NCBI GenBank assembly: GCA_027622665.1
Contig: JAQBYT010000001.1
Span: 192,001 to 256,000 of the forward strand
Origin: Verrucomicrobiota bacterium
Lineage (GTDB): Bacteria; Verrucomicrobiota; Verrucomicrobiia; Opitutales; Seribacteraceae
Reading direction: 5' to 3'
DNA: 64,000 nucleotides
The position numbers are program-made. Positions 43,401 to 49,400 of this stretch are shown in pieces (the stretch's first letter is position 1; every line of letters starts with the position of its first letter).

Positions 43401-46400
43401 ATTCGCCCATCGGTTCCATTTAGCGAAATCTAGCAATGCCGGTGTGGCTTCGAAATCGCGGCAGGAATAGGCAAACATTTCTAAGGCTTGCTCGGCGGAT
43501 GTGGCCATGAAGAACTTCTCCACTGGGAATACATCTTCTCCCAAGAGATATCGCATGCGATATTGTGTCTGTTCGGGTTCTGAATAGCGTTTCTTTTTCA
43601 TCAGAAGTTTATTTTAAGATAAATATTATGTTTTATTCATGAAAACCCATAATTGATAATTATAGTGCAACAATAGAGCTGTCTTATACAATGAGCAAAT
43701 TGCCCTGACTCTCCTTTAGGCGGAATCTGGTACTTTATGATGAAGTCCATTATATTTATAAGTAATAAAAGCAGGAAAGTGCAGTTATGCTTACATTCCG
43801 AAATGACTTAAGCGCTTTCCCGTATCGAGGCGGGTTGCCTTGGACTTGTAGGTCGACCGTCTGGAATCGTCGCAGCAGGACTTCAATTGCACTTCCAACT
43901 ATTTTCCTTGTGGTTGGCCTTACTCAATCTGGGTAGGCAGGTGCCGATAGTTTTTCGCGTCTTTCAGACAGCGGAAGAACTACTTTTTTAATGGAAGGAA
44001 CTGTAGCGCGTCTATGATTACGTAACCGTCGGTGCCTTTGTTGGTTATAAGGACACTTGCCGCTTCAGTAAAGGAGAAGTTGCCAAGACTGATGGAGGAT
44101 TCGTCAACGGGAGGCTCCTTCGTTTGGTTTACGATGACGGTGGTTTCGCCGTCGGAATGAACGATGGTGACAGGAACGTTTGTGGCTCGATTGTCGTTAG
44201 GCGGATACGCGAGACGCACATCGTAACGACCAGGTTTGAGCCTTACCTTGAAGCGGGCGTTGCGAGCCCCTTTGTCTTCGTTGCCGTCGTGTCTATAGCC
44301 ATTACCGATAAACGGTCCGGTGGCAGAACTCGAAGTCCAAGTTCCTTTCAGTTCCGCTTGGGAGTCGTCCACCACTATGCCGTCTAGCTTTATGGATTTC
44401 ACCGAGTTCATAGGCGGAGGAATGTTTAATTCCAAAACTTGACCTTCGGCTAGGAGATGTTTGCGAAGCGTCGCGTAGGGGAGGTCTTGAACGGCAAGGT
44501 TTTCGGCGAGAGATAGAAGCGCCGCGGTGGCGGCGGACTGTCCGAGGATCATGAAGACAGGTTCCATGCGGATGGAACCGAAAGCGATGTGGGAACTCGA
44601 CACGCAGACTGGAACGAGTAGGTTTTCGCACTCCTTTTTCTTTGGGACGAGGGAACCGTAGGCGATTTGGTAGGGTCCTCGGGTGGAGACTCCGATGTCC
44701 CCTTCGTTCTGGACATATCCTTCCGGGGTTACGTAGCGCTGCACGTTGTGCGAGTCCATCGTGTAGGACCCCATGCCGACGGATTCGGGCGTGGGCCGTT
44801 TTTTCAACAGTTCGTTCTCAGTCATTACGTACTTGCCGATCATCCGTCGGGCTTCGCGCACATATATCTGGTGTGGCCAGTTGTCATTGTCGTTGAACTC
44901 GTCCTTCGCCAGTCCCCAAGTGCGCATTTTATTCCGAATCAGTTTTGGGACTCGAACGTCGTTTGCATAGAACCATAGAAGGCCCTGTTGGTAAACGCGA
45001 TGTTCGTCGATGATTTCGCGTCGGCGCTCATAGGAACCATCCGGATAATCGTAGTTCATTCCAATGTTGTCGGTGGAGAAGGGGCCGTGGTTGTTTGTGT
45101 CCGTCTTTCGATTGGGTATCCGGTCGAATTTCCCGAAGACTTGATTCCACCCTGAGGAAAGGATGCGTGCGAGTAGTTCGTACTGCTTGGGGTCATATCC
45201 TTTTGGCTTTGGGAACTTGACGCGATTTTCGGCATGGTCCGTGAGGCACATGCGGAAGCAATAAGCCTGTATTTTTTTGTCCTCGGTCCCAAATTCCCCG
45301 GGGTGCTCGAGGTTGATGCGAGGGAGGAAACCGCTTAAGGGGTTGCCGGGTTCGAGGTAGGGGCTGATTTTCGTTTTAACCGCACCGAAGTGGTGTCCGT
45401 GGTGAAGGACGCCAGTTTGAACGCCGTTCCACTGTTCGCCATACGCTTCCTTTGATTCTCGCCCCACGTGATAGTTTATGCCCGCAGCGGCCAAGAGATC
45501 TCCTTCGTAGGTGGCGTCAATGAACATTTTACCATTATAAGTGTTTCCGCTCAACATGGTGATAGCCGTGATGCGACCCTTCTCGATTGCGACCCCCTTG
45601 CCAGGGGCACGGTCGAGCCATTCGTCGCGGTGGACGGTTAGTTCGTAATCGCGGGCAAAGTCCTCGAAAACCTTCTCCGCCACGCTCGGCTCGAATATCC
45701 ACATCGTACGATTCTCTCCGTCGATGGCGGGCGTACCTTGTCCTTTGTTGCCGTATTCCTCCCGTTTTTGCCACTTCCAAGTTTCCAGTTTGTTGTACTC
45801 CTTCCAGACGCGGTGGTAGAATTCTCGAGCGAGCCCGCCGATAGCCTCCTTTTTCCCCGTGTCGGTCCAGCCTAATCCACCGGAGGAGAGACCGCCAAGG
45901 TGAATGTCCGGGCAGACGAGAACGACCGATCTCCCCATCTTTCTGGCCTGAACTGCGGCGACAACTCCCGCACTCGTCCCTCCATAAACCACAAGATCGT
46001 ATTCAATGAATTTTTCGGCTAAGGTTTGCTTACTGCAAATAATGCTGGCGATGGCGAGGAGTGCGGTCAACTTCATGATGGTTTTTGTAATGGCCTAAAC
46101 GTTTAGAGAAATCTCCAGTGACTATAATTTAGAAAGTAATGTTATCAATGTGGGTTTTATTGTTAGGTGGATTCAATTTCGACATGCAAAAAACAGTAAG
46201 CCTAGCCGCAGATGTTATCTCAGATCTCACCCCGATGGGGAAGCCGACGAAATTAGTCTTCGTTTCGCGTTTTCCAAGTCAAACCCGTGGTTGATTGACC
46301 ATCACCATTCGGTATTAAATAACTGGCTATGATGCCTGCTAGAAAGCAGGAGGCGACCCCTGCAAAGGCATAAAACCAGGAATGTACGGGATGCCAGGTT

Positions 46401-49400
46401 TTTAGTGAAAATACGACGGCAGCCGAGGCCGCAAGGCCGATCAGGGTTCCTTTTGCGTGGGCTTTTTCGGCGAAGATGGCCAAAAGGAATAGTCCACCCA
46501 GACCTCCACCGAAGAGACCAAGAAAGCCGACGAACTGATCCCACAGAGACTTGATTTCAGTCCCCGCCAAAAAGAGGGCGAGAGCTATGCCCGCTACACC
46601 CACCGCGACCGTTGCGATACGAGCTACACGGAGCTTTTCGGTGGCAGTGGAGCTGGGCCGGTAACGGGCATGGAAGTCGATTGTGACGGCGGCGGCTACG
46701 CTGTTCATACTGCTGTCGAGACTAGACATCGCTGCTGCGAAGACGCCCGCGATCACGAGTCCTGCGATTCCTTCGGGCAGCTGTGCAACGACATAAAAGG
46801 GCAGTATGGCATCGGCGGTGGAGAGATGGGGGTCGAGGGTTTCAGGGTGGTTGGCGAAGAAGACGTATAGGGCGGCTCCGACGAGAAAGAAAAGAAGGGT
46901 TGCGGGGACGGTGAGAAAGGCATTTGTCCAGATGCTACGGGCAGAGGTCTTTTCGTCCTTGGTCGTCAGGTAGCGCTGGACTACGGTTTGGTCGCTTCCG
47001 TAACTGATTAAACTAGCTGCGAGACCCCCAAGCAGAAGGGTCCATAAAGTAGGTTCTGAAAAATTCCAACGGAGGTCTATATAGTTAAGCTTTTCGGCGG
47101 ATTGCGCTTGATCAATTAAACTCTGAAAACCACCCACTTCTCCGGCAATAGAAGCAACTACATAGACCGCTCCTCCGAGCAGAACGAACACCTGCAGGAC
47201 ATCTGTCCAGATAACGGCTTCAATGCCGCCGAGGGTTACGTATATGATGCAGAGAACCCCCATTACTAGGATGCAAGTGGTGACGTCCACTCCCGTAACG
47301 ACCGATAAGGCAAGAGATGGCAAAAGCAGAACTATTCCTATTCTAGCCAATTGTAGGAAAATAAAAAAGCCACTTGCGACTAACCTAACAGAAGCGTCGA
47401 ACCTTTTTTCAAGATATTCGTATGCGGTGGTTACGTCCAATTTTCGATAAAAAGGAAGAAAGCAGAATACGATCAGAGGAGCTACGAGAAGTATGGGAAG
47501 ATTGCCGAAGAGATAGGTCCAGTCAGTTGCATAGGCTTTGGCAGGGAGCGCCATGAAGGTGATGGCACTCAATTGAGTTCCGAAGATACTTAGGCCTGCT
47601 GCCCACCAAGGGATACGACCACCTGCCTTGAAGAAGTCTTCCGGTGTCTTTTCTTTTCCCACCAAGCGTATGCCGATAAAAACAAGAAACGCTAGATAAA
47701 GCGCTACCGCCGCATAGTCCAGAGGACCGAATCCTTCACTCCTTTGGGGTTCTCCCAAGAGAACTTTTGCCGTTCGGACGCCGGGAGAGGTTTCTCCGGT
47801 AGGTATGACGATGCCCCCGTTCCATGCCACTGCCTGTGTCGTTACAGGAAATGGGATTTCTGCTTCGCCGACTTTGGTCCAACTGTCCGTTACTGCGTGG
47901 TAAGCAAGAATGTCCTGAGAAAAGCCGGTGTGTTGTTCGTGAAAACGTAGGTGTTGGGTCTTCAGTTCCGCAAGTTCGGTGGAGTTCGTTTCGTTGCTGT
48001 CTTCTCCACTCCTATCAAGTTCGACTATGCGCTCATTCAACTTTTCGATCTCGAGGAATCGTTGACCATCGGCTCCTCCGAAAACGAGGATATGGGCAAC
48101 GCCAATGGGAGCGCAGGTACCCGCCATTATGCAACGGGGTTGACCATCGCCAGTCGAGATTTCGGCGAGTGGTGACCAGGTCTTGTCCGAGGGATCGAAC
48201 CTGTAAGCGTCGGTGAGCATCTCGGTCGCTTTTCCCGAATGTGGATTGCGACCGCTAAAGAGATAGAGACAATCGTTCTCTCCGTTGCTTTGAGACGCGG
48301 CTAAGGGCAGAATCCGAGGTGGTCCTGACCACGGGGGCAATTCCTCCCATGCCAACTCTGCGTCCGGTTTGGAGAGGTCTAGCGACCAGAAGTTGTTGGT
48401 GGCGTCCCCTCCCATCTTTTCCTGTCCACCCATTAGATAAACGATGTCGTCTACCATTGCCCCTCCCATAAAGGCCAATGGGCGAGGTAAGTTCGGGAGA
48501 CGTTGCAGTTTTAGTTCGCGTTCCTCGGGCAACCATTGAAGGCGAAAGACGTCGTCGTGGCACCGTTCGGCGTCGCAACCACCGATGCACAGGAGTCCCT
48601 TTTCGGTAGAGATGGCCACACCGTAAGCGGAGGACTTGAGTAGTTCTAGTCTCGGCGAGGTAAACCAGTTGGATTTGGGTTTGCCGTCCGCTTCTTTCTC
48701 TAGCACGTAAACATCGTTCCACCAAACCTTCTGGCCTCCTCTCCATGACGGTAAATCCGGAAAGTTTGCTCCACCTGCCACCAGCAAGGCATCGCCGTGA
48801 ACTCCTACGAATGGTCCGGCCAATCCCGCTTGCTTGACTTCTCCTGAAGCAGGGGGTAGGTCGGGCAGGTTGGCACCCGACCAGTCGAAGGGCTGGATGA
48901 GAACTTTTTTAGCAGCAGCAAGCCAAGATCCCGAGAAAACGAAGACAAGCAGCAAGGACAGCAGAATCTTCCGTATCGATTTGACCAAGCCTAGAAGCGA
49001 TCTCATGGATCGACAAAAGTTAGTTCCGTCGGGATCAGTTCTCAAATTAATTTCAAGGGCGGTGCCGAAGTGCTGCTTCGTTTTCTCAAGGTAAATGCCT
49101 TGCTCGTCGCCTCAAAATCGAAAATGGGCTGCGATCCATTGCAGTTTTAATCCTGCGGGTTCAGGTAATGTGAGCGCCTCGGGTTTCGACGTACATGGCA
49201 TAAATGGATTGGCTTGCGGTCATGAAAAGGCGATTACGCTTAGGGCCGCCAAAGCAAAGGTTGGAGCAAATTTCAGGTAGCAGGATTTGGCCAATGCGCT
49301 TGCCTTCGGTAGGCTCGAACACATGAACGCCATCATAACCTGCACCCACCCAACCTGCGCTTGACCATACGTTTCCGTCTACGTCGCAACGGATCCCGTC

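What a model noticed while it worked through the whole genome (the two positions that open the first line are those of the whole stretch)
46253..49006. Sialic-acid mutarotase (NanM-like propeller) fused to a Na+/sialate symporter
g02716 (917 aa) joins, behind a signal peptide, a Kelch/NanM-type propeller (residues 70-418) to a complete SSF transporter (458-858) that is 39% identical to the sialic-acid symporters NanT/SiaT. I read it as a one-chain device in which a periplasmic mutarotase hands the anomer it makes straight to the transporter underneath. New would be a physical coupling of anomer conversion and uptake, and a natural fusion useful for structural work on SiaT-type transporters.
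Evidence so far: Pfam: NANM 171-418 (3e-23), Kelch 70-311 (2.5e-14), SSF 458-858 (7e-50); Swiss-Prot: A. fischeri NanT 39% over 480, P. mirabilis SiaT 38.7% over 475. Sialidases g00218/g03596, NanA g00217, NanE g01942 and a plain SiaT-like g00239 are present. Six-frame search of 30 other Opitutales genomes: full-length match in the congener G027 (73%, q34-916) and open frames of 813-973 aa around transporter matches in G091, G099 (4 loci), G079, G089, two with a separate hit to the propeller part directly upstream (G099:C2 1349757-1352297; G091:C60 19518-21935).
(Added by a program. Inside this text positions count along the whole contig: contig position 192,001 is position 1 of the stretch shown here. 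"Call 12" and the like, gene names such as g00115 and contig names such as C1 are that model's own, and its searches are not shown. The text may have been shortened before it was handed on; [...] marks where a part breaks off. The agent that wrote the report below was given it as the finding of a first reader that could run no searches.)

Follow-up and report, generated by a model that had tools for sequence, protein, structure and literature searches.

The report
Known SiaF mutarotase–sialic acid symporter fusion
This gene really does join a periplasmic sialic-acid mutarotase-like propeller to a sodium-driven sialic-acid-type transporter, but that design was published in 2021 as the "SiaF" family, so this is an ordinary further member whose function is still untested.

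Summary
The gene lies on the minus strand at 46253-49006 and encodes 917 aa: a signal peptide, a six-bladed, cyclically permuted NanM-type Kelch propeller (about 40-420), and a 13-helix SSS transporter (425-900).

The transporter half superposes on P. mirabilis SiaT (5NVA: Z 49.6, rmsd 1.9 Å, 38% identity). It keeps the SiaT carboxylate clamp (S480, T483, R555) and the Na2 site.

Severi et al. 2021 (PMC8461474) named these fusions SiaF and proposed the same hand-over of β-Neu5Ac. No SiaF transport assay turned up in the library.

NanA-like or sialidase genes lie within 8 kb in 28 of 45 long loci.

This copy is not in a nan cluster. Sialidase, a NanA-like lyase and NanE lie elsewhere in the genome. 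Its nearest nan-linked relatives share 16-17 of 18 key residues.

In passing: some Opitutales carry up to 14 diverged paralogues away from nan genes. This scan reached the same verdict on other genomes.

The parts
46253..49006 (-). siaF-type gene: 917 codons plus stop (stop at 46253-46255); an alternative in-frame TTG start lies at 49045
   Evidence: a 917-aa relative at 98% identity
48914..49006 (-). N-terminal signal peptide, residues 1-31 (MRSLLGLVKSIRKILLSLLLVFVFSGSWLAA); basic n-region, hydrophobic core, Ala-rich end; no Cys, so not a lipobox
   Evidence: hydropathy peak 2.26 at residues 10-37; helix 2-28 with lower pLDDT. No dedicated signal-peptide predictor was available
47747..48889 (-). 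Six-bladed Kelch/NanM-type propeller, residues about 40-420, cyclically permuted relative to E. coli NanM (YjhT)
   Evidence: Pfam NANM and Kelch; TIGR03548; residues 170-415 align to YjhT 3-219 and residues 50-146 to YjhT 234-327; the same order reversal appears in the genome search; strands 66-420 in the AF2 model; Kelch domains at Z 31-32
47936..48064 (-). Two-helix insert in the propeller, residues 315-357
   Evidence: H315-333 and H339-357 in the AF2 model; aligns to YjhT about 127-172; the length is kept in the family consensus
47771..47797 (-). GETSPGVRT motif (residues 404-412), with E405 and R411 aligned to YjhT E209 and R215
   Evidence: alignment; E405 in 61 of 61 and R411 in 58 of 61 family rows. 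That these are the catalytic residues of NanM is recalled from Severi 2008, which is not held
46307..47734 (-). SiaT-like Na+/solute symporter domain, residues 425-900. Carboxylate clamp S480/T483/R555; Na2 site S761/S762; Na3 site D602/D764/S765
   Evidence: 5nv9 E 5.9e-107; 5nva Z 49.6, rmsd 1.9, 469 of 472 residues aligned; residue roles from PMC5931594; positions verified
49161..50267 (-). Upstream same-strand neighbour: SMP-30/gluconolactonase-family protein (368 aa) with a twin-arginine-type leader (GRRSFLAAAA). It is the conserved partner of the fusion gene within the genus only
   Evidence: Pfam SGL 3.7e-47; present upstream in L009 and L010 and in G023 at 83% identity; absent from the other 78 loci

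Best explanation
[quoted passage not shown] A Sec-type leader exports the N-terminal part. A monomeric six-bladed, cyclically permuted NanM-type propeller then sits in the periplasm, tied by a very short linker to helix 1 of a 13-helix, Na+-coupled SiaT-like symporter.

Inferred mechanism: sialidases release alpha-Neu5Ac (or a close nonulosonate). The tethered propeller speeds its conversion to the beta-anomer next to the transporter's outward-facing vestibule. The symporter binds the carboxylate through S480/T483/R555 and imports it with Na+ (Na2 site S761/S762; Na3-like site D602/D764/S765). In the cytoplasm, the NanA-like lyase and NanE encoded elsewhere in the genome would degrade it.

Shown here: architecture, fold, conserved residues, family membership and family-level linkage to nan genes. 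Inferred: substrate, mutarotase activity, any kinetic benefit of the tether, and cleavage of the leader.
For: Architecture and fold:
- Domains are confirmed.
- The AF2 model of the whole chain has mean pLDDT 92.8 and pTM 0.91.
- The transporter half matches SiaT 5NVA/5NV9 at Z 49.6/48.7, rmsd 1.9/2.2 Å, with 469-476 residues aligned, and at TM-score 0.95/0.94.

Conserved residues:
- The SiaT residues whose mutation abolished transport (S60, T63, R135, D182, S342, S343; PMC5931594 passages) correspond to S480, T483, R555, D602, S761 and S762.
- Across 61 family rows these are present in 61, 55 (Ser in the other 6), 61, 61, 61 and 43 (Thr in the other 18).
- The propeller motif GE..PG.RT aligns with YjhT 208-216. 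E405 is kept in 61 of 61 rows and R411 in 58 of 61.

Linkage to nan genes:
- A DHDPS/NanA-like gene or a BNR_2 sialidase lies within two genes in 15 of 25 loci (Pfam).
- One lies within 8 kb in 28 of 45 loci of at least 15 kb, and both in 18 (tblastn).
- In a tree of 62 rows the window protein, with L009 and L010, is sister (support 97) to a Bryobacterales copy that is followed directly by NanA and a sialidase.
- Its 18-position signature differs at 1 position from the nan-linked L011 and L015, and at 2 from L017.

Own genome:
- A 782-aa sialidase is adjacent to a NanA-like gene.
- NanE is present (E 1.2e-62).
- The only NANM-type domain is the one in this gene.
- The other closest SSS paralogue lacks the clamp Arg.

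Literature:
- PMC8461474 describes SiaF and the same mechanistic idea.
- A stand-alone cyclically-permuted mutarotase gene of P. merdae is induced by Neu5Ac (log2 fold change 2.06; Table 2 passage of PMC12893687).
Against: - No SiaF protein has been assayed. PMC8461474 calls the experimental evidence 'very scarce'. My whole-word search for 'SiaF' with 'sialic acid' found only that paper and its preprint using the term in this sense.
- This locus has no nan gene nearby. Its neighbours are a Tat-type SMP-30 lactonase, a FAD_oxidored/Golvesin_C protein and small unknown proteins. The closest relatives L009, L010 and G023 also lack nan neighbours.
- Several SiaT residues that contact the sugar beyond the carboxylate differ: T58->Q478, Q82->N502, F243->G661, N247->S665, Q250->S668, and Na3 S345->D764. 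Q82D abolished transport in SiaT.
- The TIGR03548 and NanM NCBIfam scores are below their curated cut-offs.
- The same architecture has radiated in some Opitutales into paralogues with no nan neighbours, so architecture alone does not fix the substrate.
- The catalytic role of E209/R215 in NanM is recalled, not checked.
- The genome is 93.5% complete, and I did not search it for the other sialic acid transporter families (TRAP, ABC, MFS).
Confidence: 0.72

Rival explanations
1. Same machine, different cargo. The protein is a propeller-capped Na+ symporter for another carboxylated sugar: KDN or another nonulosonate, a uronic acid, or an acid released from a lactone by the neighbouring periplasmic lactonase. 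The propeller would act as the matching anomerase.
For: - There is no nan gene at the locus.
- A Tat-leader SMP-30/gluconolactonase gene directly upstream is conserved in all four genomes of the genus examined: window, L009, L010 and G023.
- Five SiaT sugar-contacting positions differ.
- In G032, 14 paralogues keep the clamp (S480 14/14, R555 14/14) but vary the specificity positions. None of the 12 regions around them holds a NanA-like or sialidase gene.
- The genome's own 'nan' cluster is atypical: sialidase, DHDPS-family lyase, PhyH dioxygenase, Zn-ADH, aminotransferase and a lactonase.
Against: - The window protein is 51-57% identical to nan-linked copies (L011, L015, L017) but only 38-42% identical to the radiated G032 paralogues.
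- It keeps R411, which 11 of 14 G032 paralogues lack.
- It shares 16-17 of 18 key positions with nan-linked relatives.
- The differences from SiaT are largely shared with nan-linked family members: Q478 in 24/40, N502 in 25/40, G661 in 29/40.
- The lactonase association does not extend beyond the genus (2 of 80 loci).
Confidence: 0.2
2. The propeller is not an enzyme here. It would serve as a tethered substrate-capture or gating domain (functionally like a binding protein), or as a structural cap.
For: - No activity data exist for any fused or cyclically permuted NanM domain.
- Sequence similarity to the assayed E. coli NanM is low (E 1.8e-9 over two segments).
- In G032 paralogues the motif Arg is replaced in 11 of 14 while the fusion is retained, so the propeller can persist without that residue.
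Against: - In this protein, and in 58 of 61 family rows, both motif residues are kept.
- G404 and P408 are invariant, and P402, E405, G409 and R411 are at least 90% conserved, in 104 sequences. That fits a conserved active site.
- Capture and catalysis are not mutually exclusive.
Confidence: 0.06
3. The long frame is an artefact: two genes joined by a sequencing or assembly error.
For: None found.
Against: - The frame is continuous with no stops.
- All 120 listed relatives have both domains.
- 589 genome stretches were confirmed.
- Full-length orthologues exist at 95%, 92% and 73% identity.
- The whole-chain model is confident (pTM 0.91).
Confidence: 0.01

Closest known systems
[quoted passage not shown]
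   Same: N-terminal leader peptide, NanM-type (cyclically permuted) propeller and 13-TMH SiaT-like SSS domain in one chain. It occurs in Verrucomicrobia, Planctomycetes and Bacteroidetes, and the proposed direct feeding of beta-Neu5Ac is the same. The window protein groups with nan-linked copies in the tree and shares their key residues.
   Different: - This copy is not in a nan cluster. The paper's tree used only transporters inside nan clusters (Fig. 4 legend).
[quoted passage not shown] Here a two-helix insert (315-357) is predicted and aligns to YjhT about 127-172. I could not check whether that is the same element.
- The distribution found here is wider than the paper states: Acidobacteriota (Bryobacterales), Chloroflexota (Anaerolineales), Fidelibacterota, Omnitrophota, Balneolota and KSB1.
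SiaT of Proteus mirabilis (PDB 5NV9/5NVA; Wahlgren et al. 2018, PMC5931594)
   Same: LeuT-fold SSS transporter with Z 49.6, rmsd 1.9 Å and 38% identity. The carboxylate clamp S60/T63/R135, Na2 serines S342/S343, and D182 and S346 of Na3 are conserved.
   Different: SiaT has no propeller. Substitutions here are T58->Q, F78->Y, Q82->N, F243->G, N247->S, Q250->S and S345->D.
NanM (YjhT) of E. coli, periplasmic Neu5Ac mutarotase (PDB 2UVK; Severi et al. 2008, not held)
   Same: Six-bladed Kelch propeller exported to the periplasm. The GE..PG.RT motif is aligned. Pfam NANM scores 124.6 bits against a cut-off of 45.
   Different: The blade order is cyclically permuted. The propeller is covalently tied to a transporter rather than being a soluble homodimer (dimer stated in PMC10017367). 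Similarity is weak (E 1.8e-9). 2UVK did not appear among the rows listed by the fold searches, which does not exclude it.
NanM-NanZ (ST4, MFS) fusions of Akkermansia (Severi et al. 2021)
   Same: An independent N-terminal fusion of a leader-bearing NanM-like domain to a sialic acid transporter.
   Different: The transporter is an MFS protein with an added helix, not an SSS. This was not examined here.

Membership tests
SiaF clade (ST5 SSS sialic acid transporters fused to NanM) | NanM-type (cyclically permuted) propeller fused to the N-terminus of the SSS domain in one reading frame | tested here: met
SiaF clade (ST5 SSS sialic acid transporters fused to NanM) | Leader peptide that places the propeller outside the cytoplasm | tested here: met
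   A basic n-region plus a hydrophobic stretch at residues 10-31, and helix 2-28 in the model. The propeller ends about 7 residues before helix 1 of a domain whose N-terminus is outside according to PMC8461474. No SignalP-type predictor was run, so cleavage is not shown.
SiaF clade (ST5 SSS sialic acid transporters fused to NanM) | 13-TMH SiaT-like SSS domain | tested here: met
   469 of 472 residues of 5NVA aligned, Z 49.6. I did not count the helices one by one.
SiaF clade (ST5 SSS sialic acid transporters fused to NanM) | Groups phylogenetically with fusion proteins encoded in nan clusters | tested here: met
   FastTree of 62 rows: sister (support 97) to the nan-linked L017 and near the nan-linked L011, L015 and L016. 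No named SiaF exemplar of the paper was in the tree. 19 of the 80 loci were left out (partial or filtered).
SiaF clade (ST5 SSS sialic acid transporters fused to NanM) | Genetic linkage to sialocatabolic (nan) genes | tested here: not met
   No nan gene lies near the locus. The sialidase and NanA-like gene are on contig C4 and NanE on C47. The paper notes that 'many', not all, SiaF genes are in nan clusters, so this is typical rather than strictly defining.
SiaF clade (ST5 SSS sialic acid transporters fused to NanM) | Transports sialic acid | not testable with these tools
   This needs complementation or uptake assays. The paper says it has not been shown directly for any SiaF.
SiaT-type Na+/sialic acid symporter | Carboxylate clamp Ser60/Thr63/Arg135 and Na2 site Ser342/Ser343 | tested here: met
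   S480, T483, R555, S761, S762
SiaT-type Na+/sialic acid symporter | Remaining Neu5Ac contacts: Thr58, Gln82, Phe78, Phe243, Asn247, Gln250 | tested here: not met
   The residues here are Q478, N502, Y498, G661, S665 and S668. The first four are the commonest residues among nan-linked fusion proteins too.
NanM / YjhT mutarotase family | Match to the family profile above its curated cut-off | tested here: inconclusive
   Pfam PF24996 scores 124.6 against 45 (met). NCBIfam TIGR03548 scores 177.8 against 243.2, TIGR03547 110.6 against 256.35, and NF010730 122.2 against 416 (all below).
NanM / YjhT mutarotase family | Residues needed for mutarotase activity (Glu209, Arg215 of YjhT; recalled from Severi 2008, not verified here) | tested here: met
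   E405 and R411 align to YjhT positions 209 and 215. Their role rests on recall (searches gave no source).
NanM / YjhT mutarotase family | Six-bladed Kelch propeller fold | tested here: met
   The AF2 strands span residues 66-420. Six-bladed Kelch domains match at Z 31-32 and rmsd 1.9-2.6.

The most novel reading that the evidence does not exclude
The window's copy may not be a Neu5Ac importer. It could be one branch of a broader, radiating family of propeller-capped Na+/acid-sugar symporters. Within its genus it is always paired with a Tat-exported SMP-30-type lactonase rather than with nan genes. It could therefore take up a different carboxylated sugar, for example a nonulosonate or a uronate freed from a lactone or ester in the periplasm. 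Supporting the broader family picture: some Opitutales hold 12-14 paralogues per genome that keep the carboxylate clamp and Na+ sites, vary the specificity residues, mostly lack the mutarotase Arg, and sit beside PhyH dioxygenases, acid-sugar kinases and a large secreted Ig_7 protein family.
Probability: 0.2. Interest if true: 0.45.

Novelty: new member of a known kind. Interest (0 to 1): 0.17.

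Why it matters
It matters little as a discovery. The fusion, its topology and its proposed logic were published in 2021, and this scan has met it repeatedly on other DNA.

The remaining value is practical.
- No SiaF has been assayed. 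The whole chain folds in silico with high confidence (pLDDT 92.8, pTM 0.91), so it is a reasonable candidate for the first structural and functional test of whether tethering a mutarotase speeds uptake.
- The family is far more widespread in environmental phyla than the paper's description as enriched in gut microbial communities suggests.
- In a few marine-type Opitutales it has expanded into many paralogues that probably carry other acid sugars. This warns against annotating every such fusion as a sialic acid transporter.

Tried and rejected
- **+ strand:** translating the stated coordinates on the + strand gives only stops; the gene is on the - strand.
- **Operon with the neighbours as a pathway (lactonase, fusion gene, FAD oxidoreductase):** rejected as a family feature. 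The FAD_oxidored/Golvesin_C gene is absent from all 80 related loci, including the 95% and 92% relatives, and from G023. The lactonase is confined to the genus.
- **Promoter/terminator scan of 43500-51000:** counts were no higher than in shuffles (4 against 5.2; 13 against 9.3). No operon structure can be read from it.
- **Source for the NanM catalytic residues:** the 2008 JBC paper is not held, and a term search found nothing relevant.
- **2UVK in the fold searches:** not among the 50 rows listed by Foldseek or by VIA-align. Generic Kelch domains filled the list and the permutation may hinder the alignment, so this says nothing against NanM kinship.
- **My simple ORF caller:** it missed or merged some genes (L011, L015, L019, L066). 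I therefore repeated the linkage count with tblastn. That count uses queries taken from the loci themselves, and DHDPS-family hits may include non-NanA lyases.
- **AGE-type epimerase (PF07221):** not found in the 93.5%-complete genome.
- **Earlier notes on this genome near the locus:** none.

Full report
**1. Observation**

The stated coordinates hold an open frame on the minus strand only. It runs from the ATG at 49006 (an in-frame TTG lies at 49045) to the stop at 46253-46255, giving 917 residues.
- Pfam finds NANM at 171-418, Kelch repeats from residue 70, and SSF at 458-858.
- NCBIfam finds the 'cyclically-permuted mutarotase' model over 60-415 (177.8 bits, below its cut-off of 243.2) and the sodium/solute symporter superfamily model over 458-860.
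- Against solved structures, the C-terminal half matches P. mirabilis SiaT over residues 425-897 (E 5.9e-107).
- The propeller matches E. coli YjhT/NanM in two segments in swapped order: residues 170-415 to YjhT 3-219, and residues 50-146 to YjhT 234-327. This is the cyclic permutation, and the whole-genome profile search shows it too.

**2. Anatomy**
- Residues 1-31 look like a Sec-type signal peptide: a basic stretch, then a hydrophobic core, then an Ala-rich end. I had no dedicated predictor.
- An AlphaFold2 model built on 104 family sequences is very confident for the whole chain (mean pLDDT 92.8, pTM 0.91).
- In the model, beta strands fill residues 66-420. A two-helix insert lies at 315-333 and 339-357. 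The first transporter helix starts at 428, about seven residues after the last propeller strand.
- The transporter half superposes on SiaT (5NVA Z 49.6, rmsd 1.9 Å, 469 of 472 residues; 5NV9 Z 48.7; Foldseek TM-score 0.95/0.94).
- The propeller matches six-bladed Kelch domains (Z 31-32).
- PMC8461474 states that the 13-helix SSS domain is Nout-Cin. The short linker and the leader therefore both place the propeller in the periplasm.

**3. Key residues**

The SiaT paper (passages read) identifies these roles:
- S60, T63 and R135 hold the Neu5Ac carboxylate.
- T58 contacts the anomeric hydroxyl.
- Q82 contacts the glycerol tail.
- F78, G81 and F243 surround the N-acetyl methyl.
- N247 and Q250 make water-mediated contacts.
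- A56, L59, A339, S342 and S343 form the Na2 site.
- D182, S342, S345 and S346 form the Na3 site.

Reading the alignment, and checking positions, the equivalents are:

| SiaT residue | S60 | T63 | R135 | T58 | Q82 | F78 | G81 | F243 | N247 | Q250 | S342/S343 | D182 | S345 | S346 |
|---|---|---|---|---|---|---|---|---|---|---|---|---|---|---|
| This protein | S480 | T483 | R555 | Q478 | N502 | Y498 | G501 | G661 | S665 | S668 | S761/S762 | D602 | D764 | S765 |

The carboxylate clamp and the sodium machinery are kept, while the contacts to the rest of the sugar differ.

In the propeller, the motif GETSPGVRT (404-412) aligns with YjhT 208-216. From memory of Severi et al. 2008, E209 and R215 of YjhT are the residues whose mutation removes activity. 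I could not obtain that paper or another source.

**4. It is already described**

Severi et al. [quoted passage not shown]
- They report it in Bacteroidetes, Planctomycetes and Verrucomicrobia.
[quoted passage not shown] - They also say that experimental evidence is very scarce.

A whole-word search for 'SiaF' with 'sialic acid' returned 16 papers (15 listed). Only that paper and its preprint appear to use the word in this sense, judging from titles and abstracts. A further search for 'cyclically permuted mutarotase' and related phrases gave six papers. One of them shows Neu5Ac induction of a stand-alone gene of that family in Parabacteroides merdae (Table 2 passage). The supplementary figures of PMC8461474, which list the SiaF examples, were not read.

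**5. Family size and membership**
- The word-indexed protein search scored 8000 candidates, and 2539 had E <= 1e-10. All 120 listed carry both the NANM and SSF families. Source names are 'sodium/solute symporter', 'SSS family transporter' or 'cyclically-permuted mutarotase family protein'.
The 80 kept loci come from Verrucomicrobiota, Planctomycetota, Bacteroidota, Acidobacteriota (Bryobacterales), Chloroflexota (Anaerolineales), Fidelibacterota, Omnitrophota and Balneolota.
- I took 30 loci with long flanks. My ORF caller failed on two, and I set aside three (L009, L043, L057).
- In the remaining 25, the two genes on either side (97 ORFs) included a DHDPS/NanA-like gene in 12 loci, a BNR_2 sialidase in 10, and either in 15.
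- I then ran tblastn with 7 NanA-like and 6 sialidase queries drawn from those loci and from the window's genome. Of the 45 loci of at least 15 kb, 28 have one or the other and 18 have both; of all 80 loci, 46 have one or the other.
- A FastTree of the window protein plus 61 full-length copies (19 loci left out as partial or failing a motif filter) puts it with L009 and L010 (support 100). That clade is sister (support 97) to a Bryobacterales copy followed directly by NanA and a sialidase.
- Over 18 functional positions, E405, S480, R555, D602 and S761 are present in all 61 rows, and R411 in 58.
- The window's signature differs from the nan-linked L011 and L015 only at S665 (they have Asn, as SiaT does) and from L017 at two positions.
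- The departures from SiaT at Q478, N502 and G661 are the commonest states among nan-linked copies as well (24, 25 and 29 of 40).

Membership of SiaF is therefore well supported. The substrate is inferred.

**6. This locus and this genome**

The neighbours are not nan genes.
- Upstream on the same strand lies an SMP-30/gluconolactonase-family protein with a twin-arginine-type leader.
- Downstream lies a 698-aa FAD_oxidored plus Golvesin_C protein, followed by two small paralogous proteins with no Pfam match.
- The lactonase-fusion pair recurs in the three other genomes of the genus that I could examine: L009 and L010 and G023 (lactonase 83%, fusion 73% identity). It does not recur in the other 78 loci.
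- The FAD gene is absent from all of them, so it is an insertion specific to this genome.

Elsewhere in the 93.5%-complete genome:
- A 782-aa sialidase sits next to a DHDPS/NanA-like gene on contig C4, among a PhyH dioxygenase, a Zn-dependent dehydrogenase, an aminotransferase, a sulfatase and a second SMP-30 lactonase. No transporter was seen within the 18 kb examined.
- NanE is on C47.
- No AGE epimerase was found.
- The only NANM domain is the one in this gene.
It is unlikely to carry a carboxylate sugar.

The fusion is thus the best candidate sialic acid importer that I found. I did not search for TRAP, ABC or MFS sialic acid transporters.

**7. What cautions against over-reading**
- In a sample of 61 genomes of the order (own genome included), 41 have a match at E <= 1e-30, most of them to the transporter part only.
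- By my reading of the listed rows, 13 genomes have an open frame of at least 800 aa around such a match (14 further matches were not listed).
- Two genomes of one genus stand out, with 14 (G032) and 12 (G060) such frames.
- I fetched the G032 regions. The 14 proteins (809-899 aa) are 38-42% identical to the window protein.
- They keep S480 (14/14), R555 (14/14), D602, S761, D764 and S765 (14/14 each) and T483 (12/14).
- They vary widely at the specificity positions. They keep E405 in 11 and R411 in only 3. Several begin with lipoprotein-type leaders.
- None of the 12 regions holds a NanA-like or sialidase gene by tblastn.
- Their neighbours include seven roughly 740-aa Ig_7-domain proteins in five regions and six PhyH genes in five regions. 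Others are Gfo/Idh/MocA and short-chain dehydrogenases, a sulfatase, an FGE-type enzyme, an RraA-like aldolase, a SBD_N/NBD_C kinase, and a lyxose isomerase with a PfkB kinase.

The architecture therefore appears to serve several acid sugars. The window protein is much closer to the nan-linked branch.

**8. Verdict**

- Confidence that this is a SiaF-family protein: about 0.95.
- Confidence that it imports Neu5Ac or a close sialic acid with help from an active tethered mutarotase: about 0.72.
- Interest is low.

Earlier notes of this scan reached the same verdict for other genomes. They also mention diverged Opitutales paralogues and the secreted-protein neighbours. I read them only after I had stated my own reading.

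Noticed in passing
G032:C1, 14 loci (L091-L102); also G060: Two Opitutales genomes of one genus carry 14 and 12 paralogous propeller-SSS fusion frames. The G032 copies keep the carboxylate clamp and Na+ sites, vary the specificity residues, keep the mutarotase-motif Arg in only 3 of 14, and often have lipoprotein-type leaders. They lie beside roughly 740-aa Ig_7 proteins and PhyH dioxygenases, never beside nan genes.
   Followed up: partly
P0014, P0015, P0017, P0020, P0024, P0031, P0033, P0111: Longer family members of 1242-1292 aa exist. In the two scanned (P0015, P0024), Kelch/NANM matches span about 40-730 and SSF starts near 780-810, so they look like two tandem propellers ahead of one transporter.
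   Followed up: partly
window 49161-50267 (-): An SMP-30/gluconolactonase-family protein with a twin-arginine-type leader (GRRSFLAAAA) lies directly upstream of the fusion gene. The pair is conserved in four genomes of the genus, and the lactonase is more conserved (83%) than the transporter (73%) in G023. A periplasmic lactonase or esterase step ahead of uptake is conceivable but untested.
   Followed up: partly
window 43980-46076 (-): A 698-aa secreted-looking FAD_oxidored (PF12831) protein has a C-terminal Golvesin_C domain. It is absent at this position from the 95%, 92% and 73% relatives, so it is a recent insertion. A promoter-like site (10 of 12 matches) lies at 46148-46121.
   Followed up: partly
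window 43134-43601 (-) and 42079-42579 (-): Two tandem paralogous small proteins (155 and 166 aa) have no Pfam match. They are conserved next to the fusion gene in L009 and L010.
   Followed up: no
G000:C4:132001-150000 (L089): This is an atypical sialidase cluster. A 782-aa sialidase with two BNR_2 stretches and a DHDPS/NanA-like lyase sit among a PhyH dioxygenase, a Zn-dependent dehydrogenase, an aminotransferase, a sulfatase and a second SMP-30 lactonase. No transporter was seen in the 18 kb examined.
   Followed up: partly
It is probably a neutral-sugar transporter rather than a sialate transporter.
   Followed up: partly
window 50969-53065 (+): A YidC-type insertase (60KD_IMP, YidC_periplas) has a borderline C-terminal DnaJ-domain match at residues 638-692 (27.9 bits against a cut-off of 27.8).
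   Followed up: no
window 31772-37324 (-): A very long ORF of 1850 aa reads, by eye, like two UvrA-type ABC ATPase units in tandem. It was not scanned against any library.
   Followed up: no
window 47936-48064 (-): The propeller carries a confidently predicted two-helix insert (residues 315-357) that aligns to YjhT about 127-172. PMC8461474 states that SiaF propellers appear to lack the helical dimerisation hairpin. I could not check whether these are the same element.
   Followed up: partly
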